Positions 3 through 14,960 of a stretch of DNA of 20,000 nt are shown here, one piece after another. Each line of letters begins with the position of its first letter. The stretch's first letter is position 1. The stretch lies in the IMG/VR virus record IMGVR_UViG_3300020165_000001, one strand, 5' to 3'. The position numbers and the translations under genes are program-made. The notes beneath the pieces were generated by a model that was given only the letters and a program-made list of their open reading frames with translations, was not told the origin of the DNA and did no database searches. Source of the DNA: an uncultured virus (IMG/VR IMGVR_UViG_3300020165_000001) (lineage: Duplodnaviria; Heunggongvirae; Uroviricota; Caudoviricetes).

Positions 3-1358
3 TTAGATAGAATATCTGGTAGAGATGAATACTTAAAATACTTAGAAGATAATCAAGATGCTTTTAAAGAATTAAGTACTATAGAAAAAAACTTAAAGTC
101 TTTTAGTAAAGGGACAAAAGAATATAATGATCTTGTAAGAAGAAAGAATGAATTAATAAAAGATCTTACAAAAAAAGAAAACATACTTAAAGAAGATTTG
201 TATAAAAAAGAATTAAACAATTATGTTAATTCAGAAAACAATGCAAGAGAAGAATTAAGTAGACTACAAAATGAAGCTAAATCCTATATAGATGCAGGAG
301 AAGAAGTTCCTTCAGATATAACTAATAATATAGCAAAAGCAAGAGATACAATATCCAAATCTGGTAATAGAGTAAAACTATTAGTTAAACAAGATTGGAA
401 CGATTATGATATTAGTCCTGTACAGCAAGGATACAATCAAAATATTTTATTGCCTGATGGTACTATTGACATAGAAGAAAGTAAGACGACACCTATATTG
501 CCAGACCCCTTAAGTGATGATAAGGAAGAGGATATTGTTTATAATGTTGTTGATGAAAATACTGATCAAACACAAATAATAGAAACTCCAGAAGCTAAAA
601 TTATTACAGAAGATGTTGTAGAAGAAACAGTAGGAAGAGAAGATGCTGTAACAGAAACAGAAGACCCTACAATTGATCCTAACTATAGAATGAATCAACT
701 AGGTAATGCTGGTAAAGCATTATTTCAAGGTGCTGGTAAAGTGTTAGATTACGTTGGAGGTCCAGGAGGTATTATATCTTACGTGATGGGTAAGAAAGGA
801 TTGAAAGAGGCTATGAAAGAAGTGAAGCCTCATGCAAGCGCACAACTATCACCTATGTTTATGCAGCATCTTAGACAAAGTAGAGAGATTGCTAAGAAAG
901 GATTTCATCCTGATCAAGCTAGGGTGATTCAAAAAGAAATGGATGGTGCTTATCAAAAAGGATTAGAGAATGCGGTTAGAGGTTCTGGAGGACAAAGAGC
1001 AAGATTTTTAGCTTCCTCTGGTATATTAGACGCTCAAAGATCATCTGCACTATTAAATTATGCTGCTGAAGATTCTGAACTACAATCAAAGAATCAAGAG
1101 AAGTATGAAAAGCTTATGATGTTTAAAGAGAATTTTGATATACAACAAACAGAAAAAGAAAGAGCAGAGGATATGGAAAGACAGGTTGCTAATAAAAAAG
1201 CAGCAGCTACATTTACATCAGCTGCATTTACAAACCTTATGTCTGGATTTGGAGGAAGTGGCAGCTCTCTTTTAAACAGAAACAACACAAGCAATCTTTA
1301 CAATACAATAGAAGGATTAATGAGTAACCAGGGGAACACAGGAACAGATAACAAATAA
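3..1358 (+). CDS. 5'-truncated putative internal virion/ejection protein (>=451 aa)
   Basis: The ORF track starts at TTG 198, but the same frame is open back to position 3 (LDRISGRDEYLKYLEDNQ...), so the true start lies upstream of the window. It has a coiled-coil-like N-part, an acidic E/D/T linker, Gly/Ala-rich segments (GGPGGIISYVMG; AAATFTSAAFTNLMSGFGG) and no Cys. Function is inferred from context only. Confidence 0.6.
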   Translation, partial: LDRISGRDEYLKYLEDNQDAFKELSTIEKNLKSFSKGTKEYNDLVRRKNELIKDLTKKENILKEDLYKKELNNYVNSENNAREELSRLQNEAKSYIDAGEEVPSDITNNIAKARDTISKSGNRVKLLVKQDWNDYDISPVQQGYNQNILLPDGTIDIEESKTTPILPDPLSDDKEEDIVYNVVDENTDQTQIIETPEAKIITEDVVEETVGREDAVTETEDPTIDPNYRMNQLGNAGKALFQGAGKVLDYVGGPGGIISYVMGKKGLKEAMKEVKPHASAQLSPMFMQHLRQSREIAKKGFHPDQARVIQKEMDGAYQKGLENAVRGSGGQRARFLASSGILDAQRSSALLNYAAEDSELQSKNQEKYEKLMMFKENFDIQQTEKERAEDMERQVANKKAAATFTSAAFTNLMSGFGGSGSSLLNRNNTSNLYNTIEGLMSNQGNTGTDNK

Positions 1359-1360
1359 TT

Positions 1361-3379
1361 ATGGGAATAGATTATGGATTTTTTGATGCTTTAACAGGCC
1401 CAATGAAGGCAGCTGGAGATATCCAAGCAAATCGTGATGCTAGGGCAATGCAGCAAATGCAACAACAGCAACAAATTAAAAATCAACAATTACAAGAGCA
1501 AAACAGAGACCAAGCATATCAACAACAATTATCAGCAGCTACAGACCAAGCATTAAAAGATATATACACTGATAATGGATTTGCAAGACAAAAAGATGTA
1601 GATGATTTTAAAAATTGGCATACAGACTTATCTGGATGGAAATCTATACAGGGAGTTTTAAGGCAACATGGCTCTATAGACAATGCTAGGCTAAGTGGTA
1701 ATTTAGATTATTTAATGGAAGAGTATAAAGCTAATTTAAAAGACAATCCAGTTTCTAGAAGAATTAAACAGAACAAAAATTCTTTAGAAAAATATCACGC
1801 TGCTGCTTTAGATCCAAAAAATCAACAATTTATTACATCAGGCCAAAGTGAAAGATACGAGCAGTTTATAAAAAATGAAACTGATAACTTTGTATTCCAC
1901 GGATTAAGATCAGATTATTTAGATCAAGCTAGTCAAGCATTAAGTATGTCAGACCAATTAGATTTAGATGAGGTAATAGGAAGTAATTATCAGGCTATTA
2001 TAAAGGATATGATTAATGATCAGAATCCTGATGATCCACAAGCATTTATGCAATCATTAAGTCAAGAGGACATTAGAACGTGGGTAGGTAAAGAATTACG
2101 CTATGATGAAGGTTCTGGATTCTTTAATGATAAAGGTATATATGGTGTTAAAGAAATTGATACAGAGTTTGCTACAGAAATGGTTAGGTCATTAGATGCC
2201 GTAGGAAGCACTGGTATCGCTAAGGGTAGTGATTATTTTAGAAATAAAGATCAAGGTGTATCATTTAAAGAATTGTTTGACGGGACAGCTGCTATGGATT
2301 GGGATAGATTAGGAGGTTATGACAAGAATAACGAAATGAAAAACTACAAAGGCATAAAAGCACCTTTTGCTAAAGGAAGACAAATGGTTGGTAGTGGTAG
2401 AGTATTCGCTAATAATCAAATGCTTGAAAACGCTATAACACAATCTTGGGCTGGTGATTATGGAGATGAAGCTAAATCATCTAGATATAATTCTAAATCA
2501 CGTCAAGTAAACGATATAGCTATGCAAGGCCTGTATGATTCAAGAGGACATAAAATAACAGATAGCGATATAGCATCTACTTGGTTAACAGGAGCAGGCT
2601 CATGGCAAGAATCAGAAACAGATGACTTAAGATTAACTGGATATCACATTGCTTTAGAAGGTAAAAATAAAGATGGTGATGCATTCTTACTTACAGACGT
2701 TTCTAATGAGGAAGATATGAATAAATTGAGAGAACAATACGCTAATACAGTATTTGATTACGTTGTAGTAGCAGAACTTATAGATGACGATATGGTAAGC
2801 CATGATGATGCTTACTATAAGAAGATAGATATGGGAGATCCTACAATTCAAGCAGCTTTAAATGAAAAGATAGATTCTACAGATTTAAATAGAGTCAAAA
2901 CTCAAATGGCAACATACGAGCAAAGTTTAGCGCAAAAAACATATAATAATAAAAGAAAAGCTTCAGGTAATGCTATATTACAAAAACAAATGAATTTACC
3001 TTCTTCTCCTGCTGTAGATGAATTTATAGGAGCTTATGATCAATCTCTATCAATAGGATTAGGTATGGCTAATGTTCCTTCAGCAAAAATTCAAAAGGCT
3101 ATTCCTTTGTTAATGTCAGATTTATATGTAGATTCGCAACAAGAAAGAGAATACCCTGTACAAATTGGAGATCAGATAGCAAGAAACTCTTCTGAATATA
3201 TGGCTTTATCTACACAGGTTCTTAAAAAAGGATTGATTAATAAAAATCCTGGAGTGTTAGATATGCTAAAAGCAATACAAGAGGGTAACTATGACGTATA
3301 CAGTCAAGGTTTAATGCCTGAAAATAGATACAAGCAAAGCAGAAAATTAAGTAAACAAATATCACAATACCAAAATTAA
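1361..3379 (+). CDS. Putative internal virion/ejection protein, 672 aa
   Basis: ATG lies 2 nt after the upstream TAA. It has a Q-rich coiled-coil-like N-terminus (AMQQMQQQQQIKNQQLQEQ), is mostly helical/acidic, lacks Cys, and sits just upstream of the virion RNAP gene. No catalytic motif recognised. Confidence 0.6.
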   Translation: MGIDYGFFDALTGPMKAAGDIQANRDARAMQQMQQQQQIKNQQLQEQNRDQAYQQQLSAATDQALKDIYTDNGFARQKDVDDFKNWHTDLSGWKSIQGVLRQHGSIDNARLSGNLDYLMEEYKANLKDNPVSRRIKQNKNSLEKYHAAALDPKNQQFITSGQSERYEQFIKNETDNFVFHGLRSDYLDQASQALSMSDQLDLDEVIGSNYQAIIKDMINDQNPDDPQAFMQSLSQEDIRTWVGKELRYDEGSGFFNDKGIYGVKEIDTEFATEMVRSLDAVGSTGIAKGSDYFRNKDQGVSFKELFDGTAAMDWDRLGGYDKNNEMKNYKGIKAPFAKGRQMVGSGRVFANNQMLENAITQSWAGDYGDEAKSSRYNSKSRQVNDIAMQGLYDSRGHKITDSDIASTWLTGAGSWQESETDDLRLTGYHIALEGKNKDGDAFLLTDVSNEEDMNKLREQYANTVFDYVVVAELIDDDMVSHDDAYYKKIDMGDPTIQAALNEKIDSTDLNRVKTQMATYEQSLAQKTYNNKRKASGNAILQKQMNLPSSPAVDEFIGAYDQSLSIGLGMANVPSAKIQKAIPLLMSDLYVDSQQEREYPVQIGDQIARNSSEYMALSTQVLKKGLINKNPGVLDMLKAIQEGNYDVYSQGLMPENRYKQSRKLSKQISQYQN

Positions 3380-3381
3380 TT

Positions 3382-3516
3382 ATGCCAGCAAGAGGATTAT
3401 ACGCAAATATGAATGCTAGAAAAAAAGCAGGTACTTCTAGATCTAAAAAGAATACTACAATATCTAAAAAAGCATATTCTAATATGAAATCTGGATTTAA
3501 AAATAAAAAGAAGTAA
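3382..3516 (+). CDS. Small highly basic protein, 44 aa (not in ORF track)
   Basis: MPARGLYANMNARKKAGTSRSKKNTTISKKAYSNMKSGFKNKKK*. It fills the gap between two large genes exactly: ATG is 2 nt after the upstream TAA, and its TAA overlaps the next ATG (TAATG). 14 K/R, no D/E. Confidence 0.8.
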   Translation: MPARGLYANMNARKKAGTSRSKKNTTISKKAYSNMKSGFKNKKK

Positions 3517-6500
3517 TGGCAGAAGACTATAGATCAGGTTTAAATATGCTGTTAGGTGATTTAGCTAAAAACGATGTCAACGTTCCTAGTCCAGAAGAAG
3601 CAATTAGTCAACAATATGACGCTCCTATGGAGGGGCCGTCAACACTTAGTTCTGTGATACAAGGACTAGATATCTCAGGACAACAAGATATAACTTTTGA
3701 TAGAATGGCTCAAGGACAAGCCGCTTCACAGTTAGGTGCTGATGAGTATGGTAAGTTAGATGAATTAAAGTATGGCTCTGCTCCTGATCAACAAATAGTA
3801 GATCCTAATGCTATGATAGGCTCTACTGGAGAAAGAGTAGGGAGAGGATTAAAAGCAGGTTGGGGTGATTTATTATATGGTACTGGTGAAACAGTAGATT
3901 TTATTAATGCTTGGGCTAGACCAGGAGATGTAGAGCCTTCTACTTCTGTTGGTGAATGGTTTCAAAAGATAGGTACAGAATATCAAAATGAAAATGCTTT
4001 AATTCTTTCTGAAGATTTAAAAGACATTACCTTTCAAGATATGTTTAAGGGAGAGTTTTGGTCTTCTAAGATATCTAGACTAGTTCCTTATGCTATGTCA
4101 TTTGTTATACCTTACGGAGGAGGTGCTAAGGTAGGAGCTTCATTGTTAGGAAGATTTGGGGTATGGTCTGCTAAAGGTATATCTAAAGCTAATAAATTAG
4201 GGAAGGTAGGTATTCCTGTTGGGGCTATGGGTAAAGGTATAGGAATGGGTGGTAATGGAATAAAAGGATCTGGTATTTTAGGGAAGTTAGCATTTGATGG
4301 TGGTAAAAAAGGATATGCTCAAACAAAATTTATGCGTAATGCTGGAGGTTTTATTGGAGGGGGTGCTGCTGCGAATATGGCGGAAGGAGCATATCTTTCA
4401 GGAGAAGCATATTCTGAAATGTTACATGAGGTAGATGCTGATGGAAATAAACTATTTACCCCAGAAGAAGCGGCTAATCATGCAGCTGGCGTAATGTATG
4501 ATAATGCTAAATGGATGGGTGTAGATATGGTTCAATATGGATTACTATTTGGTGGTATAGGTAAAAATATGGCTAAAAGATTATTACTAAACCCTCTAAA
4601 ATCAAATCCATTTAAAGCTAGTATAAAAGGGCTTACTGCTCATACCGTAAGAAAAGTATTACCTAATTTACCAGCAGCAGGAGCTTATGCAAGTGTTGAA
4701 GGTATAACAGAAGGTATACAAGAAACATATCAAGAGTGGATTAAATACGCTAACATACAAGAAGCTAAAGGTGAAGATTACGAATCTATGACTGATTGGG
4801 TTAAAGATGAGTACGGAAATTATAAGCCAGAAATTAGAGATTTATTCTGGTCTTCTGTAGGATTAGGAGGCGCTATGGGTGGTGCTAGAGGTTATTTTGA
4901 CTCAGCAGCAGCAAGGCATAAAGCTCTTAATGAGCATCAAGAGGCTATCAATACTAATGCTCAAATAATGGATGCGGCTAAAACACCTGATCAACAGTAT
5001 GTTGCGGAGCAAATGGTGCAAGATAATATTATATCACTTAATGTATGGAATTATAGAGGTGATGGATCTATTGTTATGGAGTATATTAACAATATGGTTA
5101 AGGATAAAAAGATGGATCAACAAACTGCTGATGAATACATTCAGGCGGTAGAGCAAGCAGAAAAGAATTACGAAAAGCATACAGTTAATAGTATGCTCAC
5201 TGAAGCTGGTGCAAAACAAGCATTTTTTAGAGAGACAAGAAAATCTAGAAACCAAGCACAACAAGCATTACAAATAGCCTCTTATGAAAATGATAAAGCT
5301 GTTACTATTGAGAACATTAAAGATGATAAAAAACAGAAAAAAGCTCTTGCTATATTAGAGCAAAATCATTTATCTATAATGGAAACATTAGAACAGGATA
5401 TGGCTGTTTTAAATAGAGAGATAGAAGACATATACACTTTAAGGGTTGACGAGGCTCCTACAGCTAAATCTACAGGCAAGAGAGATGCTAGGTATAAAAC
5501 TCAAGGCCTTACTAAAGATGAGATAAATATATATTCACAAGAAGGAGCCAAGGAAGCTGAAGCAGAAGCTAAGAAGAAAGCAGATGCAGAACCTTCTATA
5601 ATATCTAAAGTTGTAGAAGGAGCTAAAGAATTAGGAGGTAAAGCTGTAGAGGGGGCTAAAAGCTTATTTGGTAAGGCTAAAGAAAAAGCTACATCAGAAG
5701 AAACTAAAAAAGCAGTAGAAGATATTAAAAAATATACTAAAGAAGAAATAACTCCTTCTGCTAAAGAAAAATTAGTTAAAGCTTTAGAAGCTGGTAAAAT
5801 AGGAGTGAAGGCTGCTTTAAAAATTATTGGTAGTGGAGTAAATAAAATCATTAACAATAAAGATGTAAAAGAAGCCATAGAAAAATTTAAACAGGCTAAG
5901 AAAGAAACAGTAGAAGCTGCTGAAGAAAAGAAACAAGAGTCTGACGAAGACGTAAAAAAAAAAGACCAAACCCAAGTAGTTCCTAAAACAGAAGAGTATA
6001 GCAAGACAGAAGAAGCTCTTAAAAAGAAAGGAATACAGTTAGAAGCTGCAAGTATATCTAAAGTAGTAGATAAAGAAGGTAAGGCAAGTACTACTAGTTA
6101 TATGTTAAAAACAGCTACAGGTAAAGTTATTAAGTTTTTTACATCTAAACCTTTCGGAGCAGAAGCTCTAACAAACACACCACAAAATATAAAGTTAAAT
6201 TTAGTAGAGCCAGTAGCTGGTAAAGCTGATGTAGTTGAAGTAAATGGTAAGTTATACTTTCAGTATCAAAAAGGAGCTCCACTATATGAAAGTAAAATCC
6301 AAGTTATAGTAGGAGATAAAGTTATTGGTCAGTTAGAATACCAATCTTATAAAGAAGATACAGGTCCTACTAAAAAAGCTAAAAAGAAAGATGCTCGTAC
6401 TATAGATAAAGTAATAGGTTCTGTTAAGCAAACGAAAGAAAGTTTTAAAAAATTACTTGATAAGTCTTTTAAGAATATTCCTGCACAAGAGGATATATTA

Positions 6501-9500
6501 ATTAATCGTAATTTAGAAGTATACACTCATTCAGGATTAGGGGCAGCAGCATTAACTAGAAGTATTGTACAAAAACAATTCCCAGGTGCGCGTGGGTATG
6601 TAATATCATCTAAGCTAGCAGACGACTATGGGCAAGAAGCTACATCTTTAGCAATAGGCTCTGTTGTTTTAATTAATGAGAATCAAGTAGAACAAACTGA
6701 TTTAATACATGAATTAGGACATGTGTATTACGGCTTAATGGAAGATACTCCATTAATGAAAAGAATTAAAAAGCTTTTACCGAAATCATCTTTATATCAA
6801 AAAACTAGAGAAGAATATCCTGAGCTAACTTTAATGAGTTATAAGGGTAATAATCTGACTTTAGGTAGTATTTATAGAAATGTACTTAATAATAAACCAG
6901 ACGCTACTAATGACGTTATAAGCATTGCAGAAAACATTGCAATAGCAGAAAGACAAGGAGATAGCGCAAGAAGTACAGAGTTATTTAATAACTTAAGAAT
7001 ACAATTAAAAGCACAAGGAGTTAAAGATGTTAGAGTAGACCAACAAAGACATTTGCTTGAAGAAACGTTTACTAGAACACTAGAAGCCTATTCTAAAGGA
7101 ACAGTTAATTCGGTTATAAAAGGATCAGAAGCTCAAGAATTATTAAAGAAAGATTTAATAGAGTTTTATAAAAAAACTAAGAAGCTAGCAACTGACGAAG
7201 AAGCTAAAAGACTTTTAGATTTATCTGTAGATAACATACAGTCATTAGACTTAGAGGCTTCTATTAAGCACATCTTACTAGATTTTAACTCTGGAGAGCG
7301 CACTATACCTGTAGTGCAAAACTCTGCTTATGGTGATATCAAAAGAGCTAATAAGAAAGCATTTTCATCTAGAGCAACATACTCAGCAGTATCATCTTAT
7401 ATAGGAGATTTTATAGGCAGAAGCTTAACTCCTACTGTTATGACTAATAGAGTTATGAAAAGAATAGCAGAAGACTCTAGCTTAAAAGTTGCAGATGTTA
7501 AACAATTAAGAGAGTATGTAAAAGCTATTATAGTTCAGATTACTAGACCTGCAGATTTAAAGTTAGCTGACGAAACATTAGACAATCAGCTTTCTGATAT
7601 AGGATTAGATTTAAATGAAAAAGAAAACATGGATCAGGCTTCTGAGTCAGATCAATACAAAGAATCTAATAAAATAATTGCATTACCAACAACTACATCT
7701 AATTTTATAAAGAAGATTACTGAAGTATATAACTTTAAAAACCCTGACAATGTAATTAACAGGAAGAAGTTGTTGTATGATATGTATGTTATAGCTAAAA
7801 GCACACAGAACGATCCATTTGATTTTATTCCTACATTAAGAAAATCTGATAGTGCTGAGATTATGGCTATGTTAAGGGTATTAGATGGTGTTTATGGTAA
7901 AGACAAAGTTCTTACTAACGCTAAGCTAATGGAGCTTAAAGGCCCAATAGAAGGTATTAATATAGAGGTTCTAACTCAACAAGCATTAGAGATAGGATAT
8001 ATGGGCGCTAGAAAGTGGAAAACTTATAAAACCATGAGTAAAACTTTAGAGGCTGGTGTTATAAATGATGTTATGAATAACCTTAAAGAAAACACAGCTA
8101 AAGGGAAAAGAATAGCAAAAATATATGATAACTTATTTTATGATTCTAAAGAAAATAAATTTAAAGAAGTTCTTGATGAGAACGATATAAACACAGCTGC
8201 TAAAAGAGTTTTGTCTGAAATTTTAGATGACACTAACAAGGGTGTTTTAATAGACAAGGACGCTTTATTAAATGCAAGGATATTATTTAAAGGCAAAAGA
8301 CAAACATTAAGTCAGATACTTTTTAATCATACTAGATTTAAAAATGGCAAGCCTAATTTAGAGAACCAATCTTTAATGGGTATAACTAAAGAAGGTAAGT
8401 TTGCTGCAAAAATAGGAAAGTATGAGGCTAAAGGATTAATATACGGCAAGCAGGGTGAGTTAAAAGTAATACTTACAGAAGGTCTTGTAGCTTCTAGAGC
8501 TATTAACTATTTATCTATGGTAGATAATGTAGAGGGAGATGGCATAAGTGTGTTTAATAAGGAGAATGGTTTGCATAATAGAGCTAAAAATGTAGCAACT
8601 ATTATAAACAACGAAACTATTATAGAGTCAGACAGTGTTATGCACCCTGATAATAATATTTATACTGATATGGCTTTTAGAAAAAAGCAAGCTGGAGTAT
8701 TAGCTAATAACGATGGTAAGGTGACAAATAATCCTTTTAACTTTACTATACACTCAGGAATGATGAGAACATTAGTTACAAGAGCTGATGGTGTTAAGTA
8801 TGAGGGTAGAGCATCAAAATTAAATAGCGTAACTCCTAGTGAGTTAATAGCAGGTGATTTCTTTAGCTTCTTATCTAAATACAATGAGTTAATGGCTGGT
8901 AACGAAGCTATGGGTATATACGATCAAGCTATTGCAGTATTTTCTGATAAAAGTAGAAGGTACTATGTAGAAAGTATTATAGCTCATAACGATAAAATGA
9001 AAAAGTTATTGCTTACTAAAGTAAAAAACAATCCTGCTTATAATGCTAAGTATTTAAAAGGAAGTAAAGTCTTTCCATATACTATAGAAAATGGTAAGAT
9101 TAAAGAAATGCCTGCTCTTATTAAAAAATGGAAAAGCTATGCAAATAAAAATGCAGAACTATTTAAAGGCAATACTGATTTAAAAGAGGTTAAAAATTTA
9201 GACGCTGCTTTAGACGCTTTCTTAACATCATATATTGCTAATAAGTTTATGGCTCAACAATTGTTTGTGCATGATCATAGACAATCTAAAGACCAAATAG
9301 ACTATATTAAAAGAGCTGCTGGTTCAATAGCTAGCCATATTGTATTTGATAGAAATACACAAATAGAGCCTATTATTATTAAAGATTACTTTGTTGATGA
9401 GGAAGGTAATATAGGTACCGATGAAAAAGAAGACAGTGCTATTGAAAACGATGCAATGGGATATGTTCTTCCTGAGCAAGCTAAATACATTAGAGCTAAG

Positions 9501-12500
9501 TATGGAGAAGTACAAAAGGTAGGTAATGTATTTAAGTTTGTATATCACTATACAGAAACAGAAGGTAAGTTAAAAGGCAACACAACATATTTAAAGTTTG
9601 CTGTACACACGTTAACACCTAAGCTAGAATCCACAAGTCCTTATCTTAAAAACATAGGAGATATGCTTAGAAAAAGACAAGAGCAAGTTCAAGAAATGTC
9701 TAACACTCCAGGTAACCTTGTTATAGCTGCATCTGAATCTGCTGCTAAACTATTCTTTGATGGGCCTTCTGGTAAAACAGGAAGTAAGTATGTATACGAT
9801 GTTTCTACATCTGAAAACATAGATCAGATAATGGCTAGTCAAGATGAGATATATAAAGGAGACAATGGTTACCAAGCATTATCAGGAGAGGGATTAGGTA
9901 TACAGTTAGAATTAGATAAGCAAGCAAGTGAAAGATTCTTTCCTTCTCAATTATTCTACAACTTAGCAACAAACATAGAAACTAAAGAGGAGCAAGCAAT
10001 TGTAGAGGAAATGTTTATATTACGACAAAGAGTAATGGAAGCAAACAATTATTCTAGAAATAATGCTGGAGAACAAAATGGCCTTATTGTAGATAACATG
10101 GCTACAGAATCACAAGTCCTACAAGAGAGAGATGGATTTAAGTCTTCTGTAAGCGCAGATGTATTTGGTGTACTACTAGACTCTGTTTTTCCTAAAGTTG
10201 ATCCTAGATATCCTTTTGTTAATGCGTCTTATAACTCTATAGCAACAGGACGTATAACACACAAAGGTACTAAAATGTACACTAAAGGTTCTATTGCTTA
10301 TCAATCTGCAAGTCTAGGTATGGGGTTACAATCTTATAAAGAAGGTTTATTTAAAGGAGATGAGAGTGTAATTGCTTCAGAAGCTATTGTTCCTGGATAC
10401 TTACAAAAAGATGGAGTTAAAAAAGGAGACTTGTTTATCGGCACAAGAGTACCTGCTCACGGTAAAGTAAGTAGTTCTATTTTTGTAGTAAAAGATTTTC
10501 ATGATCAAATAGGAAACTCACCAACATCTAATATTACTATACCTGCACATGTAAGTAAGAATTGGGGAGCCGATTTAGATGGCGATTCGGTTCACATGAA
10601 TTTTAAATGGACAAACGCAGAAGTTAAAAAGAAAGGTAAAGAATGGAGAGAGTTTTCTAATGAGTTTTTTGACAAGTATGTACAGTTAATTAGTCAACCT
10701 AAAAGACAGGCTGAAATTAAAGCTGATATTAACTTTGAAAACGATGCTAAGGCAGCTATTGCTAAAGCAGAAAGTGTTTATGGCTCTAAAGCTAAACAAG
10801 AAGAGTCACAGCTTACACCTATGGGCGATGCGCAAATGTTTGAAGATAATGTGCCAGCAAAGAATTTAGTTGGTATAATCGCAGCATTACAAAGAACGTT
10901 TAATATATTTTCTAACACAGAAGAAAAACTACCTTTTAGTATAAAGATTAATAATAAAACGGAAGACAAGTTTTTTGATGATTCTTCATTAGAAGGTGGT
11001 GTAGGTAATTGGTTTGGTGTAGCACAGCTTCTTAATATAGCATTAGACAACGCTAAACATCAATTTGCTGGGAAGCTTGGTATAGATATGCAAAGTGTAT
11101 TCCCTTATGTTACTTTAAGAAGATTAGGGTATTCATTAAATGATTTATCAGTATTATTTAATTCTCCTATAGTAAAAGAGTATATGGAGTTTAAAAGAAG
11201 TAGAAGTAAAAACTATATATCAAAAGATAGTGATATTAAAGAAATGTTCTTAGAAGATCAAACTATAAACTTTAACGAGTTAGTTATGTTCTTAGAAAAA
11301 AGAGGTGTAAAAGGATTAACTACAAAAACTGAAAAGGGTAGAGCTTACAATCAAAAGACTTGGGATAAGTTAGCTAATAGAATTACAGGGGGTATTGAGA
11401 TAAATTTAGATGCATTGTCTAAAGAGGACGCAACGGCAGAGATTGACACTATACTAATGCTATATGGTTTAAACAAATACAATCAAGATATAGTAAGGCC
11501 TTTTTCTAAAGCGTTTACTGTACATCAAACTATAGAAAAGAATCCTTTAGAACTTAGAAAGATAAGAGATGATATAGCAAGAATACAAGCTGGTCCTGTT
11601 ATTATAAATGAAAAAGCTAAAGCTGGTGGATTAAACATATCTTACACATTAGGAGCTAGTTCACGTAATAGCATTGTACAGCATGCTATGGGATTATTTG
11701 ATAGTGTATTAGAAAGAGCACAAAGAACTGATATAAGATATACTCAGTATATGAGAGATATTATTAATGATGCTACTTTTGAAGAATTAAATAAAAATAA
11801 ATTAACTAAGCCAAAGATTATAAATCAAATTATAATAAATAACTTAAACAAGAAAATTGAGTTTTTAAGACCTTTTGCACAAAAAGATAGCCCTACACTA
11901 ATAGAAGAATTTAAATTATTACAAGGACGTAATAAGGAAAATAAATTCTTAAATAGAATTATAGAGGTTAATGAAAAAGGAAACAAAGTAGTTATTAATA
12001 GAGCTGAGATTACAGAGTTTACATCTTATAAGGCTATAGAGCAAATAAAAGAATCCTTTAATCAACTTACTGAAACTGAAAAAGATTTTGTGTTTGCATT
12101 AGAAGCGCAGTTTAATGGATTTGGATTTACAGGAGGAGCTGGTGCTGCTGGGTCTTTTGTGCCTTTCTTTGATGACGTGTATATAGATAAAATAAATAAA
12201 TCTATGTCTGCTATTATAGAAGAAAATCAAAATAGAGAAGCAAACTTAGTAGGTTTATTTGCAACAGAGTATACAGATGCAAAAAACATGATTGTAAAGA
12301 AAGCTAAAAAATACTCCACTGAAGACAAGATAGACATAGCTTCTAAGCTAGACAATTCTTTTGTAGACCCAACAAGAAAAGCTAAAAAGATAATATCTTC
12401 TGATACTTCTTATAATAATGATTATTTAGGAAGTGGTGTTAGAATGCTAGATATAGATACTTGGGCTAAAGACAAAGGAATTGATTTATCTAAAATATCT

Positions 12501-14960
12501 CCAGAATCAGATACATTTACTATACTAAGAAATAGATATGACACATATAGAGAGCAATATAGACTAGTTAAAGAGTTTGAAGCTAAGTTAGAAAGCAAAC
12601 CATTATCTAGCTATGAAATAGATAGCCTATATGAGCTAGGTGTTAAGTTTAGAAAGATGGACAACTCAGCTACTAAAGGTATTGCTCATGCTATAGAAAA
12701 AGAAATAGGACAAAGAGCATTTAGAATACAATCTGAAAAGCTTAGAAAATTAGGAGCTAAGCAGGGATACGAATACAATACTCCTGGAGTAGATGGTGTA
12801 GCACAAGAAGATATTAGTAATTTTCAAAAATGGCTGGGGTCTAATGATATGACATCTAAAAGGCCTGAAATGCAATATCTAATTAATGAGGTGCAAGAAC
12901 AGTACAGAGCTTACTTAAGATCCTTTACAAAATACAAGAATATTATAGAGAGTGCTAACAGATCTCTTGTCAGATCTAAAATGAGAAGTTTAAGTATTTT
13001 AGAAAGAGTTAGACAAGGTTTTGATGTTAATGCAAGATATGAGTTTATATATGGTAATATAGCAACATTAGAAAATGGCAATATAAGACTGCTAAGTGAG
13101 CAAGAAATAAATGAAAAAGAATTAACACAAGAAGAGATTAATTACTACAATGCTTTTAAAAAGATAGGAAGTGATTTATTAAATGTACAAGATGTTGTAG
13201 TTCCAGGTATGCAAATGGGCAATATAGAATCAATGTCTAGAAGTGGATTATTTGGACTATACAATACAACAATAGATTCTAGTGACTACAATAGAGTTAG
13301 GGTAAAAGGTGTTGACAAAAACGGAGACAAGGTTTATAAAACTTTTTACGAATGGAAGTATGATGTTTACAAAGGTAGGAGTGGTTCTATTACATTAGAG
13401 TCTGGTAAGAAAATAAATGAGTTAGAAAAGTTAAGAAAACTAGCTAAAGACTACAAGTCTAGAGGTATGCATATGGACGGAGAAAGTATTATGCTTTCTG
13501 ACGCGGAGTATGATGCTTTAATAAACAACGGATCAAGACTTAAGAGAATGATGGGTGATGGAGCTATGAATAGTTTAGATGCCGAGTTAATACAAGAGTA
13601 TGAAAGAAGAAGAGGTGTTAAGGCTGCTACTACTAGTTATGATATACACTCTGGTATGCTAGAGTTTGTAAGAAGCTCATTGTTTATGCATGGTGAAAAC
13701 TTACAAGAAAATCCAAATGGCTTTGCTGGTATGAATAAAATGGCTGTTCTTACAGATTCTATTATAGGATTTAATAAAGGTTTAGATAATAAAAAAGCTG
13801 TTGAGTATTTAACTAAATGGTGGAAAGAAGGATTTTTAGAAAAGAAACAACAGGAGGGTGTATTTGGTAAAACAGGAGATAAAGTTATAGATGGCTTTGT
13901 TAGGCTTACATCACTTAGATTGCTTGGTTTTAATATGGGTGTAGGTGTTGGTAATATATTAGCAGGTAAGTATCAAGAACTACGTAAGCGTGGTGGTAAG
14001 CAATTTGCATTAGGAGAAAAAAGATATTGGGTTGATGGTAAAGACAAGTCTTGGAATCTATTAAAAAAACACAGGATAGTAGAATATAGTTTTGATGAAT
14101 TTATACACTTATCTGAAAGAAAGGGAATGTATGGAACATTAGAAAGATGGTCTTATATATTTATGGATAGATCAGAAAGTTACATACAAGGCTCTGCATT
14201 TTTAGGAGAGCTTACACAAAGAGAGTATGATGGTCTTGATCCTATTACAGATAAACGAGTAATGCAGATTAATCATAAAATATCTACACTGCACGGAGAA
14301 GGATACACAGCATTAGACGCAAGCACACTATCTATGTATTCTTATGGTAGGGCGTTAATGCAATTTAAAAAATGGTTTGTTACTACACTAAGAGATAGAT
14401 TAAAGCCTGAAGATATAAATAGATTTGGAGAGGTTAATATAGGTAGTTACAGAGCATCTAGCGAATTTGTTGTAAATTTATTTAGAAAGTATTTTGCTGG
14501 AGAGATGACGAAGAAAAACATTATGGATATATTTAATGAGTCTAGCAAAGTAAGACAAAAAGAAATTATCAATCATTTAAACGGTATAGGTATAGGGGTA
14601 ACTTTATTAAGTTTAATTGCACTTGCAGAAGATGATGACGATATTGATTCTACAACATTAAGAACAATGAAAAAGTTGTCTCATGATGTATTTGTAACTA
14701 CAGATATAAATAGATTTACAAATTATACAATAAAGCCTTCTGCTTACAGTACGTTAAGAAATTCTACTAAAGTTATAGGAGAAGCTGTTAGAGGTGATAA
14801 GGTTAAAAGAAGTGGCCCATACGGAGGCAAAGGAGAGTCACAAGCTATAAAAACACTTAAGTATGATATAGCCCCATTAGCTGAAGTTAGAAAAGATATA
14901 AAAAACATTTTCTTTGGTGGTAGTGAACCAAAAAAAGAAACAAGCTCATTAATAAGATAA
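3516..14960 (+). CDS. Giant virion-associated polyprotein: two-barrel (DPBB) DNA-dependent RNA polymerase fused to a zincin metalloprotease and ejection-protein-like termini, 3814 aa
   Basis: Catalytic GADLDGD (D2353-D2357, nt 10572-10586) is preceded by RVP (R2311) and followed by ALDNAK (D2511). Upstream motifs are DYIKR, NDAMGY (D1979), SESAAK (K2078) and GLGIQLE. HELGH is at aa 1065-1069, with a downstream EE at aa 1182-1183. No Cys. The architecture matches crAss-like virion RNAPs (type example Cellulophaga phage phi14:2 gp66). Confidence 0.88.
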   Translation: MAEDYRSGLNMLLGDLAKNDVNVPSPEEAISQQYDAPMEGPSTLSSVIQGLDISGQQDITFDRMAQGQAASQLGADEYGKLDELKYGSAPDQQIVDPNAMIGSTGERVGRGLKAGWGDLLYGTGETVDFINAWARPGDVEPSTSVGEWFQKIGTEYQNENALILSEDLKDITFQDMFKGEFWSSKISRLVPYAMSFVIPYGGGAKVGASLLGRFGVWSAKGISKANKLGKVGIPVGAMGKGIGMGGNGIKGSGILGKLAFDGGKKGYAQTKFMRNAGGFIGGGAAANMAEGAYLSGEAYSEMLHEVDADGNKLFTPEEAANHAAGVMYDNAKWMGVDMVQYGLLFGGIGKNMAKRLLLNPLKSNPFKASIKGLTAHTVRKVLPNLPAAGAYASVEGITEGIQETYQEWIKYANIQEAKGEDYESMTDWVKDEYGNYKPEIRDLFWSSVGLGGAMGGARGYFDSAAARHKALNEHQEAINTNAQIMDAAKTPDQQYVAEQMVQDNIISLNVWNYRGDGSIVMEYINNMVKDKKMDQQTADEYIQAVEQAEKNYEKHTVNSMLTEAGAKQAFFRETRKSRNQAQQALQIASYENDKAVTIENIKDDKKQKKALAILEQNHLSIMETLEQDMAVLNREIEDIYTLRVDEAPTAKSTGKRDARYKTQGLTKDEINIYSQEGAKEAEAEAKKKADAEPSIISKVVEGAKELGGKAVEGAKSLFGKAKEKATSEETKKAVEDIKKYTKEEITPSAKEKLVKALEAGKIGVKAALKIIGSGVNKIINNKDVKEAIEKFKQAKKETVEAAEEKKQESDEDVKKKDQTQVVPKTEEYSKTEEALKKKGIQLEAASISKVVDKEGKASTTSYMLKTATGKVIKFFTSKPFGAEALTNTPQNIKLNLVEPVAGKADVVEVNGKLYFQYQKGAPLYESKIQVIVGDKVIGQLEYQSYKEDTGPTKKAKKKDARTIDKVIGSVKQTKESFKKLLDKSFKNIPAQEDILINRNLEVYTHSGLGAAALTRSIVQKQFPGARGYVISSKLADDYGQEATSLAIGSVVLINENQVEQTDLIHELGHVYYGLMEDTPLMKRIKKLLPKSSLYQKTREEYPELTLMSYKGNNLTLGSIYRNVLNNKPDATNDVISIAENIAIAERQGDSARSTELFNNLRIQLKAQGVKDVRVDQQRHLLEETFTRTLEAYSKGTVNSVIKGSEAQELLKKDLIEFYKKTKKLATDEEAKRLLDLSVDNIQSLDLEASIKHILLDFNSGERTIPVVQNSAYGDIKRANKKAFSSRATYSAVSSYIGDFIGRSLTPTVMTNRVMKRIAEDSSLKVADVKQLREYVKAIIVQITRPADLKLADETLDNQLSDIGLDLNEKENMDQASESDQYKESNKIIALPTTTSNFIKKITEVYNFKNPDNVINRKKLLYDMYVIAKSTQNDPFDFIPTLRKSDSAEIMAMLRVLDGVYGKDKVLTNAKLMELKGPIEGINIEVLTQQALEIGYMGARKWKTYKTMSKTLEAGVINDVMNNLKENTAKGKRIAKIYDNLFYDSKENKFKEVLDENDINTAAKRVLSEILDDTNKGVLIDKDALLNARILFKGKRQTLSQILFNHTRFKNGKPNLENQSLMGITKEGKFAAKIGKYEAKGLIYGKQGELKVILTEGLVASRAINYLSMVDNVEGDGISVFNKENGLHNRAKNVATIINNETIIESDSVMHPDNNIYTDMAFRKKQAGVLANNDGKVTNNPFNFTIHSGMMRTLVTRADGVKYEGRASKLNSVTPSELIAGDFFSFLSKYNELMAGNEAMGIYDQAIAVFSDKSRRYYVESIIAHNDKMKKLLLTKVKNNPAYNAKYLKGSKVFPYTIENGKIKEMPALIKKWKSYANKNAELFKGNTDLKEVKNLDAALDAFLTSYIANKFMAQQLFVHDHRQSKDQIDYIKRAAGSIASHIVFDRNTQIEPIIIKDYFVDEEGNIGTDEKEDSAIENDAMGYVLPEQAKYIRAKYGEVQKVGNVFKFVYHYTETEGKLKGNTTYLKFAVHTLTPKLESTSPYLKNIGDMLRKRQEQVQEMSNTPGNLVIAASESAAKLFFDGPSGKTGSKYVYDVSTSENIDQIMASQDEIYKGDNGYQALSGEGLGIQLELDKQASERFFPSQLFYNLATNIETKEEQAIVEEMFILRQRVMEANNYSRNNAGEQNGLIVDNMATESQVLQERDGFKSSVSADVFGVLLDSVFPKVDPRYPFVNASYNSIATGRITHKGTKMYTKGSIAYQSASLGMGLQSYKEGLFKGDESVIASEAIVPGYLQKDGVKKGDLFIGTRVPAHGKVSSSIFVVKDFHDQIGNSPTSNITIPAHVSKNWGADLDGDSVHMNFKWTNAEVKKKGKEWREFSNEFFDKYVQLISQPKRQAEIKADINFENDAKAAIAKAESVYGSKAKQEESQLTPMGDAQMFEDNVPAKNLVGIIAALQRTFNIFSNTEEKLPFSIKINNKTEDKFFDDSSLEGGVGNWFGVAQLLNIALDNAKHQFAGKLGIDMQSVFPYVTLRRLGYSLNDLSVLFNSPIVKEYMEFKRSRSKNYISKDSDIKEMFLEDQTINFNELVMFLEKRGVKGLTTKTEKGRAYNQKTWDKLANRITGGIEINLDALSKEDATAEIDTILMLYGLNKYNQDIVRPFSKAFTVHQTIEKNPLELRKIRDDIARIQAGPVIINEKAKAGGLNISYTLGASSRNSIVQHAMGLFDSVLERAQRTDIRYTQYMRDIINDATFEELNKNKLTKPKIINQIIINNLNKKIEFLRPFAQKDSPTLIEEFKLLQGRNKENKFLNRIIEVNEKGNKVVINRAEITEFTSYKAIEQIKESFNQLTETEKDFVFALEAQFNGFGFTGGAGAAGSFVPFFDDVYIDKINKSMSAIIEENQNREANLVGLFATEYTDAKNMIVKKAKKYSTEDKIDIASKLDNSFVDPTRKAKKIISSDTSYNNDYLGSGVRMLDIDTWAKDKGIDLSKISPESDTFTILRNRYDTYREQYRLVKEFEAKLESKPLSSYEIDSLYELGVKFRKMDNSATKGIAHAIEKEIGQRAFRIQSEKLRKLGAKQGYEYNTPGVDGVAQEDISNFQKWLGSNDMTSKRPEMQYLINEVQEQYRAYLRSFTKYKNIIESANRSLVRSKMRSLSILERVRQGFDVNARYEFIYGNIATLENGNIRLLSEQEINEKELTQEEINYYNAFKKIGSDLLNVQDVVVPGMQMGNIESMSRSGLFGLYNTTIDSSDYNRVRVKGVDKNGDKVYKTFYEWKYDVYKGRSGSITLESGKKINELEKLRKLAKDYKSRGMHMDGESIMLSDAEYDALINNGSRLKRMMGDGAMNSLDAELIQEYERRRGVKAATTSYDIHSGMLEFVRSSLFMHGENLQENPNGFAGMNKMAVLTDSIIGFNKGLDNKKAVEYLTKWWKEGFLEKKQQEGVFGKTGDKVIDGFVRLTSLRLLGFNMGVGVGNILAGKYQELRKRGGKQFALGEKRYWVDGKDKSWNLLKKHRIVEYSFDEFIHLSERKGMYGTLERWSYIFMDRSESYIQGSAFLGELTQREYDGLDPITDKRVMQINHKISTLHGEGYTALDASTLSMYSYGRALMQFKKWFVTTLRDRLKPEDINRFGEVNIGSYRASSEFVVNLFRKYFAGEMTKKNIMDIFNESSKVRQKEIINHLNGIGIGVTLLSLIALAEDDDDIDSTTLRTMKKLSHDVFVTTDINRFTNYTIKPSAYSTLRNSTKVIGEAVRGDKVKRSGPYGGKGESQAIKTLKYDIAPLAEVRKDIKNIFFGGSEPKKETSSLIR
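5607..5672 (+). repeat. Imperfect 33-bp tandem repeat encoding 11-aa amphipathic repeats
   Basis: KVVEGAKELGG / KAVEGAKSLFG; DNA aaagttgtagaaggagctaaa... / aaagctgtagagggggctaaa...; lies within a K/E/A-rich linker. Confidence 0.7.
6708..7064 (+). other. Zincin-like metalloprotease motif within the giant protein
   Basis: DLIHELGHVYY (HExxH at nt 6708-6722) is preceded by a hydrophobic strand (VVLINE). LLEETF (EE at nt 7059-7064) is the candidate third zinc ligand. Confidence 0.72.
9450..11057 (+). other. RNA polymerase catalytic core (two double-psi beta-barrels) within the giant protein
   Basis: Ordered motifs DAMGY...FK...YLK...SAAK (Lys-bearing barrel), then RVP...GADLDGD (Asp-triad barrel), then DNAK. 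The R-to-first-D spacing is 42 aa, similar to the RxP...DxDGD arrangement in beta-prime subunits and RNAi RdRPs. Confidence 0.85.

What the first reader, a model, noticed from the sequence alone, without database searches (positions are those of the whole stretch)
3..14960. About 4980 consecutive codons with no cysteine across four genes
Seen: reading the translations of the 451+, 672, 44 and 3814-aa proteins I find no Cys, whereas the downstream 124-, 387- and 934-aa proteins have 2, 3 and 4. Established: the ~3500-aa N4 virion RNAP is cysteine-free, which is attributed to passage through the oxidising periplasm. Inference: all the large proteins in this block are ejected through the cell envelope, so Cys absence delimits the ejected cargo module and gives homology-independent support that this RNAP is virion-delivered.
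Basis: partly seen in the sequence, partly recalled or inferred. Interest (0 to 1): 0.7.

Follow-up and report, generated by a model that had tools for sequence, protein, structure and literature searches.

The report
Cysteine-free injected protein block, crAss-like phage
A marine crAss-like phage encodes about 5,000 consecutive residues of virion cargo proteins, including a giant RNA polymerase, with no cysteine at all, most likely because these proteins must be threaded unfolded out of the virus particle into the host cell.

Summary
The ORFs at 3-1358, 1361-3379, 3382-3516 and 3516-14960 give 4,981 residues with 0 Cys, and the downstream genes carry Cys. It is not chance or base composition. 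The rest of four related contigs has 0.79-1.19% Cys, so 47 are expected here (P about 1e-21). TGT/TGC is common in the off-frames.

The depletion is conserved: 6 Cys in 285,315 residues over 77 homologues of the giant protein. In 35 metagenome loci the Cys-free block starts exactly after a Cys-bearing muzzle-protein homologue.

The 3,814-aa protein is not N4-like. Its core folds like the virion-packaged two-barrel RNA polymerase gp66 of crAss-like phage phi14:2 (Foldseek E 2.8e-20). The block matches the crAss001 cargo module and starts one gene upstream of the window.

Cys suppression in ejection operons is already published for N4-like phages (PMC11445570). This is the same rule in an unrelated lineage.

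By-product: in 8 crAss-like phages with split polymerase-chain proteins, the rare Cys sit at the termini facing each split (12 of 12 junctions). They are missing where the modules are fused, as here. This suggests disulfide-coupled cargo chains.

The parts
3..1358 (+). 3' part (451 codons) of a cargo-block gene whose full length is 661 aa in close relatives. It is the second gene after the muzzle gene. 0 Cys.
   Evidence: Full-length homologues are Cys-free in L002, L003 and L006 (661-724 aa; the L001 copy is cut by the contig end), and the 1194-aa form in L005 has 1 Cys. In 33 metagenome loci this position has 8 Cys in 22,956 aa. No Pfam or PHROG family. No significant match to crAss001 gp46 (E 0.095).
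1361..3379 (+). 672-aa cargo-block protein of unknown fold. 0 Cys.
   Evidence: Homologues have 2 Cys in 21,066 aa over 35 loci, both in one 1.6-kb fragment. No Pfam or PHROG family.
3382..3516 (+). 44-aa lysine/arginine-rich ORF (phrog_25774), present in only some relatives.
   Evidence: PHROG E 3.1e-18. Sequence. Present in L001 but absent between the 672-like and giant genes of L002, L003, L005, L006 and L007. Too short for its lack of Cys to mean anything.
3516..14960 (+). 3814-aa giant virion RNA polymerase fusion protein. 0 Cys.
   Evidence: 76 homologues of 2116-4355 aa; with the query, 6 Cys in 285,315 aa, and 72 of 77 proteins have none.
6708..6722 (+). HELGH (HExxH) motif of a putative zincin-like domain in the N-terminal third of the giant protein.
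   Evidence: H, E and H, plus Y1101, Q1177 and E1183 (residue numbers in the giant protein), are invariant in 21 diverse sequences. HExxH is present in 72 of 77 homologues. No fold match.
8793..11795 (+). Two-barrel RNA polymerase core (residues 1760-2760).
   Evidence: AlphaFold2 pLDDT 82.4, pTM 0.81. Foldseek best hit 6VR4 (phi14:2 gp66), E 2.8e-20, TMq 0.64, followed by QDE-1 and RDR2.
10572..10586 (+). DLDGD catalytic metal-binding motif (DxDGD).
   Evidence: D2353, D2355 and D2357 are invariant in 46 sequences. A D.D[GI]D motif is found in 75 of 77 homologues.
13797..14663 (+). C-terminal region similar to the C-terminal part of crAss001 gp49 / phi14:2 g065 (RNAP-associated cargo protein). 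It includes the protein's only strongly hydrophobic helix (residues 3684-3703).
   Evidence: phmmer E 3.6e-6 against gp49 in a set of 14 proteins. Profile E 1.3e-6 against gp49 and domain E 4.4e-4 against g065 in a set of 22 proteins. Hydropathy.
14989..15363 (+). First Cys-bearing gene (124 aa, Cys115 and Cys117). It marks the 3' limit of the Cys-free block and is a paralogue of the next gene (15384-15740).
   Evidence: 27% identity, E 1e-14.
15740..19707 (+). Two Laminin_G_3 (concanavalin-like lectin) proteins of 387 and 934 aa, probably tail fibres. They have 3 and 4 Cys and lie outside the block.
   Evidence: Pfam E 1.2e-25 and 3.6e-47. phrog_8510 virion structural protein.

Best explanation
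The window holds most of the cargo (ejection plus early-transcription) module of an uncultured marine crAss-like podovirus of about 66 kb.

The proposed mechanism is inferred by analogy with crAss001, phi14:2, T7 and N4. The proteins are packed inside the capsid and tail. At infection they are extruded ahead of or with the DNA through the narrow portal-tail-muzzle channel in a partly unfolded state, and cross the envelope. The giant protein then refolds and transcribes early genes.

The giant 3814-aa protein unites in one chain what other crAss-like phages encode as two or three proteins: an N-terminal HExxH-bearing part, the two-barrel RNA polymerase, and a gp49-like C-terminal part.

Cysteine is purged from all these proteins because a long-range disulfide would lock the chain and block threading or refolding. 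Such a bond could form during extracellular life in the crowded, oxidised virion or be made by periplasmic oxidoreductases.

Shown here: the depletion, its conservation, its sharp boundaries, the polymerase fold, and the synteny with the muzzle gene. Inferred: packaging, ejection and the selective cause.
For: (1) 0 Cys in 4,981 aa against 30-47 expected. TGY is frequent off-frame.

(2) Conservation down to about 26% identity: 6 Cys in 285,315 aa of 77 giant-protein homologues. Representatives from a 1.8-billion-protein library have 19 Cys in 124,535 aa once one weak, unrelated Cys-rich hit is set aside.

(3) Sharp boundary in 35 metagenome loci. The gene three positions upstream of the 672-aa homologue (muzzle-like in most loci) has 162 Cys in 25,057 aa (0.65%). 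The next four positions have 4/17,233, 8/22,956, 2/21,066 and 1/45,938.

(4) Other virion proteins of the same phages do carry Cys: portal 4, major capsid protein 4 and muzzle-like protein 17 in G002. The rule is therefore specific to cargo, not to virion proteins in general.

(5) Identity of the module. The muzzle homologue sits immediately upstream (E 1e-35 to 1e-43). The first block gene matches crAss001 C1 gp45 (E 3.5e-5). The RNAP core matches gp50 and the C-terminal region matches gp49. Fold match to phi14:2 gp66. The portal is about 30% identical to Crassvirales portals.

(6) The same trend holds in cultured relatives whose cargo proteins were detected in virions by mass spectrometry (crAss001: PMC10172136; phi14:2: record annotation). 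crAss001 gp45, 46, 47, 49 and 50 have 7 Cys in 7,478 aa against 286 in 22,750 (1.26%) for the rest. phi14:2 g065-g070 have 6 in 6,990 against 0.86%.

(7) The same rule holds in unrelated podoviruses. Schitoviridae: gp71 homologues 0.00075% against 0.865% for proteomes (PMC11445570). T7: gp15 0/747 and gp16 0/1318.

(8) The residual Cys obey a threading logic. Pairs lie only 5-19 residues apart (crAss001 gp45 390/398; phi14:2 g069 369/378). Autotransporter passengers likewise tolerate only closely spaced Cys (PMC3546941).

(9) Virion Cys do oxidise in crAss001, where inter-subunit disulfides are resolved in tail and portal-vertex proteins (PMC10172136).
Against: There is no proteomic or infection data for this phage or its clade. 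No cultured relative was found.

The two smaller window proteins (451+ and 672 aa) have no detectable homology to known cargo proteins, so their cargo status rests on position and Cys absence alone.

The N-terminal 1,750 residues of the giant protein show no detectable sequence similarity to gp47-like proteins.

Gut crAss-like phages tolerate some internal Cys in the same proteins, up to 17 in IAS virus, so the constraint is not absolute.

The cause cannot be told apart by sequence: periplasm, oxidation in the virion, or simply the helical, fast-evolving nature of these proteins.
Confidence: 0.75

Rival explanations
1. The lack of Cys is a by-product of base composition, codon bias or a generally Cys-poor phage proteome.
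For: The block is AT-rich (32-37% GC) and Cys is the rarest residue of these phages anyway (0.95%).
Against: TGT/TGC occur 60 and 201 times in the two other sense frames of the giant gene and 0 times in frame. Non-block ORFs of four related contigs have 0.79-1.19% Cys. The largest Cys-free ORF outside the block is 383 aa.
Confidence: 0.01
2. The depletion reflects the structural class (very long, mostly alpha-helical, fast-evolving proteins that need no Cys for metal sites or stability) and has nothing to do with ejection.
For: Cargo proteins of crAss001 are predicted to be alpha-helical (PMC10172136). Yutin et al. note unusually high evolutionary rates for these polymerases (PMC7886860). The model of the HExxH region is largely helical.
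Against: The polymerase core is a well-packed mixed alpha/beta fold with 23 invariant residues in 21 sequences, yet it is Cys-free across the family. The 2,289-aa muzzle-like protein next door carries 17 Cys. Neutral drift would not hold 285,315 residues at 6 Cys. It would also not place the surviving Cys at chain termini or in short loops.
Confidence: 0.1
3. The danger is oxidation during extracellular storage in the virion, not catalysed disulfide formation in the host periplasm. This is a variant of the main explanation that differs in where the selection acts.
For: Disulfides do form between crAss001 virion proteins. Cargo is packed at crystal-like density (PMC10172136). Internal Cys in the polymerase chain are 0, 0 and 1 in the three lineages from oxic waters (window clade; phi14:2, host Cellulophaga; Fpv2, host Flavobacterium). 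They are 1, 4, 17, 3, 9 and 9 in six gut phages. That the two cultured hosts are aerobes is my recollection.
Against: The same oxic/anoxic contrast is predicted by the periplasm model, because disulfide formation is thought to be lacking in obligate anaerobes (PMC12214031, introduction). The sample is small and confounded by phylogeny.
Confidence: 0.35
4. Cys is avoided to escape a thiol-directed host defence or chemistry acting on incoming proteins, not to permit threading.
For: Nothing direct. A defence acting on phage DNA entry in the periplasm has been described (PMC13128918; search listing and start of abstract only).
Against: No such Cys-directed mechanism is known to me. The tolerance of short-loop pairs and terminal Cys fits a topological constraint better than a chemical one.
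Confidence: 0.03

Closest known systems
Genome-ejection operon of Schitoviridae (N4 gp50-gp52; DEV gp71-gp73)
   Same: A giant (about 3,400-3,500 aa) virion-packaged RNA polymerase sits next to smaller ejection proteins, and all are nearly or wholly Cys-free across the family. Lokareddy et al. 2024 state that suppression of Cys is a conserved feature of this operon (PMC11445570).
   Different: The N4 enzyme is a T7-like single-subunit polymerase. The window's enzyme is a two-barrel polymerase, with no Pfam, PHROG or PDB-sequence match to N4-type proteins. Gene order differs: here the small proteins come before the polymerase. The parallel is convergent.
Cargo module of Crassvirales (crAss001 gp45, gp46, gp47, gp49, gp50; phi14:2 g065-g070)
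   Same: Same position directly after the muzzle gene, same polymerase fold and DxDxD motif, weak sequence matches to gp45, gp50 and gp49, and the same strong Cys depletion (0.09% against 0.9-1.3%).
   Different: Here the polymerase chain is one 3,814-aa polypeptide instead of two or three proteins totalling 5,400-6,700 aa. Depletion is absolute, not about 10-fold. The genome is about 66 kb instead of about 90-105 kb. An invariant HExxH domain sits in the N-terminal third. Intestiviridae records annotate a zincin protease in the separate RNAP-associated protein, and the Steigviridae gp47-like proteins lack a conserved one.
T7 internal core / ejectosome proteins gp14, gp15, gp16
   Same: Proteins stored in the capsid are ejected unfolded through the tail to span the envelope (PMC8605104, start of abstract). 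gp15 and gp16 have 0 Cys in 2,065 aa.
   Different: There is no polymerase among them and no detectable homology. T7 gp14 has 1 Cys.
Autotransporter passenger domains (type V secretion)
   Same: Polypeptides that must cross a narrow channel after exposure to the periplasm tolerate disulfides only between closely spaced Cys (PMC3546941). The rare Cys pairs in the phage cargo proteins are 5-19 residues apart.
   Different: A bacterial secretion system, unrelated in sequence and machinery. It is an analogy of constraint only.

Membership tests
crAss-like virion two-barrel RNA polymerase (phi14:2 gp66 / crAss001 gp50 type) | Two double-psi beta-barrel polymerase fold within one polypeptide | tested here: met
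   The model of residues 1760-2760 (pLDDT 82.4) matches 6VR4 at E 2.8e-20, prob 1.00, TMq 0.64. Next come QDE-1 and RDR2 at E 5e-5 to 1e-3.
crAss-like virion two-barrel RNA polymerase (phi14:2 gp66 / crAss001 gp50 type) | Catalytic DxDxD motif | tested here: met
   DLDGD at residues 2353-2357. The three Asp are invariant in 46 sequences. The motif is found in 75 of 77 homologues.
crAss-like virion two-barrel RNA polymerase (phi14:2 gp66 / crAss001 gp50 type) | Detectable sequence homology to known members | tested here: inconclusive
   phmmer E 7.6e-4 to crAss001 gp50 in a set of 14 proteins. Profile E 4e-6 to DAC15_63 and 1e-6 to the ctbg_1 RNAP, both in small sets. No hit of the family profile to any PDB sequence at E <= 1. 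No PHROG. tblastn of residues 1829-3814 against cultured phages found nothing.
crAss-like virion two-barrel RNA polymerase (phi14:2 gp66 / crAss001 gp50 type) | Packaged in virions, translocated into the host, transcribes early genes | not testable with these tools
   Shown for phi14:2 gp66 only (preprint 10.1101/2020.03.07.982082, passages).
Crassvirales-type cargo module | Lies directly downstream of the muzzle-protein gene in the structural operon | tested here: met
   In G002 the 2,289-aa gene before the block matches crAss001 gp44 (E 1.5e-35) and phi14:2 g071 (E 1.2e-43). Terminase, portal and capsid PHROGs lie upstream.
Crassvirales-type cargo module | Homologues of cargo proteins C1 (gp45) and C2 (gp46) | tested here: inconclusive
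   The first block gene of G002 (683 aa, outside the window) matches gp45 residues 73-234 at E 3.5e-5 in a 14-protein set. The window ORFs 3-1358 and 1361-3379 give no significant match (best E 0.05-0.1).
Schitoviridae (N4-like) ejection operon | T7-like single-subunit vRNAP domain | tested here: not met
   The polymerase core that is present has the two-barrel fold. No Pfam family at all and no PDB sequence match. Residues 1-849, 1451-1759 and 2761-3814 were not folded.
Schitoviridae (N4-like) ejection operon | Near-zero Cys in the vRNAP and neighbouring ejection proteins across the family | tested here: met
   Compare PMC11445570.
Zincin-like metallopeptidase (for the HExxH region) | HExxH plus a third ligand, and the zincin fold | tested here: inconclusive
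   HExxH and a downstream Glu (E1183) are invariant. The model is of middling quality (pLDDT 64.3). Foldseek gave no match at E <= 0.001. VIA-align gave only short helical matches with Z <= 8. No Pfam hit.

The most novel reading that the evidence does not exclude
In crAss-like phages the polymerase cargo is delivered as one covalent thread. Where the chain is split into two or three proteins, a Cys within the last 1-9 residues of one protein and a Cys at position 3-5 of the next would form a head-to-tail disulfide in the oxidised virion. The proteins would then be pulled through the tail in order and released by reduction in the cytoplasm. Where modules are fused by a peptide bond, the Cys pair is dispensable and lost. 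The window's clade, with all modules fused, is the end point: no Cys at all.

The pattern itself is observed. All 12 split junctions in 8 phages of Steigviridae, Intestiviridae and Fipvunavirus have both Cys (one needs a corrected start codon). Free ends lack them. Fused junctions (Fpv2, Intestiviridae, window clade) lack them. Among 149 non-cargo ORFs, 3 have Cys at positions 3-6, 14 have Cys in the last 9 residues, and none has both. The disulfide link is my inference.
Probability: 0.4. Interest if true: 0.8.

Novelty: new member of a known kind. Interest (0 to 1): 0.6.

Why it matters
Cysteine exclusion appears to be a simple, homology-free mark of proteins that tailed phages inject. It now holds in three unrelated podovirus lineages: T7, N4-like and crAss-like. 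For crAss-like phages, which dominate the human gut virome and are mostly uncultured, it gives a way to delimit the cargo module in metagenomic contigs whose proteins match nothing.

The clade in this window shows the rule in its purest form and shows that the three-protein polymerase machinery can exist as one chain. The terminal-cysteine pattern, if it reflects disulfide coupling, would explain how several giant proteins leave the capsid in a fixed order. The structural work on crAss001 leaves this question open. It can be tested directly with non-reducing gels of virions.

Tried and rejected
- **Whole genome of the window:** none is held. I used four IMG/VR contigs of relatives instead.
- **Cultured relatives:** megablast of the giant gene and tblastn of its C-terminal half against cultured phages gave no match. 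Only the portal links the clade to crAss-like phages.
- **Family assignment of the four block proteins:** Pfam and PHROGs gave nothing except phrog_25774 for the 44-aa ORF and a sub-threshold AAA_13 hit.
- **Family profile against PDB sequences:** 0 hits at E <= 1.
- **HExxH region:** the AlphaFold2 model has pLDDT 64.3. Foldseek against PDB gave nothing at E <= 0.001. VIA-align wide search gave only short helical matches with Z <= 8. The function of this domain stays open.
- **Equivalence of the giant protein's N-terminal 1,750 residues to gp47-like proteins:** no sequence support. It is positional only.
- **Hydropathy:** no strong transmembrane segment in the two smaller window proteins. The giant protein has one hydrophobic helix (3684-3703). 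The first block gene of relatives has a Gly-rich, mildly hydrophobic stretch.
- **N4-type polymerase:** considered and rejected.
- **Compositional artefact:** considered and rejected.
- **Earlier notes of this scan:** none exist for this place.
- **Literature:** I found no statement on Cys in crAss-like cargo proteins.
  - 430 papers held at least 4 of 5 terms. I saw the top 20 listing, and Bayfield 2023 shows 0 occurrences of 'cysteine'.
  - 1 paper. Its 7 'disulfide' mentions fall in 5 places, all shown, and all concern structural proteins.
  - the phi14:2 preprint has 0 occurrences of cysteine or disulfide.
  - Yutin 2021 has 0 occurrences of 'cysteine'.
  - Limits: the library holds only open-licence papers and preprints. 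The journal version of the phi14:2 paper and all supplements were not seen.
Full report
**Observation.** The window has one long co-directional gene array on the + strand.

At the window's own downstream Cys frequency (10/1,657) 30 Cys would be expected. At the frequency of non-block ORFs in four related contigs (411/43,298 = 0.95%) 47 would be expected, with log10 P(0) = -13.1 and -20.6. The codons TGT/TGC are not rare in the DNA. In the giant gene they occur 0 times in frame, 60 and 201 times in the other sense frames, and 102-190 times in the antisense frames. Other rare residues (Trp, His, Met) are present. The absence is therefore real, highly non-random, and acts at the protein level. 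The 44-aa ORF is too short to count.

**Conservation.** Seven IMG/VR loci with 44-96% identical giant proteins show the same thing. A run of four large genes has 0 Cys, with a single Cys in one 1,194-aa protein, and is flanked by Cys-bearing genes. Whole contigs G001-G004 give 0, 0, 1 and 0 Cys in blocks of 5,051-6,721 aa, against 0.79-1.19% elsewhere.

A search of 5.8 billion proteins found 76 homologues of the giant protein (26-99% identity over the core, 2,116-4,355 aa). With the query they hold 6 Cys in 285,315 residues, and 72 of 77 have none. An exhaustive HMMER search of 1.8 billion representatives found 81 proteins. The 75 new ones hold 106 Cys in 126,862 aa, of which 87 are in one weak hit (E 9e-6) that does not belong to the family.

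A scan of metagenome contigs with the 672-aa family gave 36 loci, 35 usable. At least two are the same contigs as IMG/VR loci. Counted by gene position, the gene three places upstream has 162 Cys in 25,057 aa. The next four positions have 4/17,233, 8/22,956, 2/21,066 and 1/45,938. The block thus has a sharp 5' edge one gene upstream of the window and a sharp 3' edge at 14960.

**What the genes are.** None of the four proteins matches Pfam, and only the 44-aa ORF matches a PHROG of unknown function. The giant protein carries an invariant DxDGD (DLDGD, residues 2353-2357) and an invariant HExxH (1065-1069).

An AlphaFold2 model of residues 1760-2760 (pLDDT 82.4, pTM 0.81) matches the virion-packaged DNA-dependent RNA polymerase gp66 of crAss-like phage phi14:2 (6VR4) at Foldseek E 2.8e-20 and TMq 0.64. 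The next matches are the two-barrel polymerases QDE-1 and RDR2. So it is an RNA polymerase, but of the crAss type and not the T7-like type of N4.

The relatives' contigs carry terminase, portal and capsid PHROGs of crAss-like phages. The portal is about 30% identical to Crassvirales, Flavobacterium and Cellulophaga phage portals. The gene just before the block is a homologue of the muzzle protein, crAss001 gp44 (E 1.5e-35) and phi14:2 g071 (E 1.2e-43).

The first block gene weakly matches cargo protein C1 gp45 (E 3.5e-5). The giant protein's core matches gp50 and its C-terminal region matches gp49/g065. In crAss001, gp45, gp46, gp47, gp49 and gp50 were found in virions by mass spectrometry and are proposed to be ejected partly unfolded (PMC10172136, passages). 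phi14:2 gp66 is translocated into the cell and transcribes early genes (preprint 10.1101/2020.03.07.982082). The window's block is the counterpart of that module, with the polymerase chain fused into one 3,814-aa protein.

One metagenome contig carries two copies 65,668 bp apart, which suggests a genome of about 66 kb.

**Comparison with known cases.** Cys suppression in injected proteins is published for N4-like phages. Ceyssens et al. 2010 noted the Cys-free vRNAP and proposed passage through the tail or periplasm as the reason (PMC3715699). Lokareddy et al. 2024 measured 0.00075% Cys in gp71 homologues against 0.865% in 191 proteomes, and called it a conserved feature of the ejection operon (PMC11445570).

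I checked other systems. T7 gp15 and gp16 have 0 Cys in 2,065 aa. The crAss001 cargo proteins have 7 in 7,478 aa against 1.26% elsewhere. phi14:2 g065-g070 have 6 in 6,990 against 0.86%.

I found no mention of this in the crAss literature I could search. The journal version of the phi14:2 paper and the supplements were not seen. The finding is thus the known rule in a new, unrelated lineage, and in its most extreme form.

**Mechanism.** The best reading is selection against disulfide-capable residues in proteins that must be threaded through a narrow channel and refold.

Three observations fit a topological constraint better than a mere lack of need for Cys. First, other virion proteins of the same phages keep Cys. 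Second, virion Cys of crAss001 do form inter-subunit disulfides. Third, the few Cys pairs that occur in cargo proteins are 5-19 residues apart, like the closely spaced pairs tolerated in autotransporter passengers (PMC3546941).

Where the oxidation threat lies, in the periplasm or in the stored virion, cannot be decided here. Internal Cys in the polymerase chain number 0, 0 and 1 in three lineages from oxic waters, and 1-17 in six gut phages. This fits either model, and the sample is small and confounded by phylogeny (for anaerobes).

**By-product.** In crAss-like phages whose polymerase chain is split, nearly all remaining Cys sit at chain ends that face a split.

| Phage | Upstream protein(s) | Polymerase protein | Downstream protein |
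|---|---|---|---|
| phi14:2 | g067: Cys1797 of 1797 | g066: Cys3 and Cys2179 of 2180 | g065: Cys3 |
| crAss001 | gp47: Cys2339 of 2341 | gp50: Cys5 and Cys2404 of 2412 | gp49: Cys5 |
| DAC15 | _61: Cys2220 of 2222 | _63: Cys5 and Cys2265 of 2265 | _62: Cys4 |
| IAS virus | gp058: Cys2110 of 2110; gp055: Cys5 | gp056: Cys2157 of 2159 | gp057: Cys5 |
| Fpv2 | first two modules fused with the polymerase | 4401-aa fusion: single Cys at 4400 | 1596-aa protein: Cys3 |

In three Intestiviridae the last two modules are fused. The zincin-bearing protein ends in Cys at the second-to-last residue (2017 of 2018, 2311 of 2312, 1956 of 1957). The fused polymerase starts M-x-C and has no C-terminal Cys. In one record this needs the first ATG as start instead of the annotated non-ATG start.

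That is 12 of 12 split junctions with both Cys, and none at free ends or at fused junctions. Of 120 close relatives of gp50, 119 have Cys at positions 3-6 and 114 have one in the last 6-9 residues. Among 149 non-cargo ORFs of crAss001 and phi14:2, 3 have Cys at positions 3-6, 14 have Cys in the last 9 residues, and 0 have both.

The window's fully fused, fully Cys-free protein is the logical end of this series. I propose that the terminal pairs form head-to-tail disulfides that couple the cargo proteins into one thread. This is inference and needs non-reducing analysis of virions.

**Verdict.** The phenomenon is known in N4-like phages and appears undescribed in crAss-like phages in the literature I could search.

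Noticed in passing
L019-L022, L060-L065 (crAss001, phi14:2, Fpv2, DAC15, IAS virus, Rudgehvirus, C0521BW15, ctbg_1): The rare Cys of the polymerase-chain cargo proteins sit at the extreme C-terminus of one protein and at position 3-5 of the next. This holds at 12 of 12 split junctions. They are absent at free ends and where modules are fused. The pattern suggests head-to-tail disulfide coupling of cargo proteins.
   Followed up: partly
L040, L044, L048, L049, L053 and L058; crAss001 gp45; phi14:2 g069: When cargo-block proteins do carry a Cys pair, the two are 5-19 residues apart (266/285, 287/306, 752/759, 260/265, 298/303; 390/398; 369/378). Only short loops seem to be tolerated.
   Followed up: partly
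window 3382-3516: A 44-aa, very basic ORF (phrog_25774, E 3e-18) lies between the 672-aa gene and the giant gene. It is present in L001 but absent at this place in L002, L003, L005, L006 and L007. Its role is unknown. A small DNA-binding or packaging peptide is a guess.
   Followed up: partly
window 6708-6722 (giant protein residues 1065-1069) and about 6063-7865: HExxH with a downstream Glu is invariant in the N-terminal third of the giant protein. Intestiviridae records annotate a 'zincin protease' in the separate RNAP-associated protein. No fold match was obtained. It might process the giant protein or act on the cell wall.
   Followed up: partly
window 14989-15363 and 15384-15740: The two small genes after the giant gene are paralogues (27% identity, E 1e-14). 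Only the first has Cys (a C-x-C near its end). No family was found.
   Followed up: partly
L003 25375-27549; L004 15439-17613; L006 24658-26991: Some relatives encode a 724-777-aa protein with 40-45 Cys (5-6%) a few genes downstream of the block. This is the opposite extreme to the cargo proteins. It is not present in the window.
   Followed up: no
L045 and L046 (one 85,541-bp metagenome contig): The 672-aa gene occurs twice, 65,668 bp apart, on one contig. This looks like a concatemer or a wrap-around assembly and implies a genome of about 66 kb, well below the 90-105 kb of cultured crAss-like phages.
   Followed up: partly
L064 10152-10220 (CrAssphage sp. C0521BW15): The annotated start of the giant RNAP gene is a non-ATG codon 21 codons upstream of the first Met. 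Starting at that Met gives M-S-C, like the other phages, so the deposited start is probably wrong.
   Followed up: yes
window 15740-16903: The 387-aa Laminin_G_3 protein also gives marginal Pfam and PHROG hits to 'Toxin_R_bind_N' and 'toxin' families. This is the shared lectin-like jelly-roll fold of receptor-binding domains, as expected for a tail fibre, and is not a sign of a toxin.
   Followed up: no
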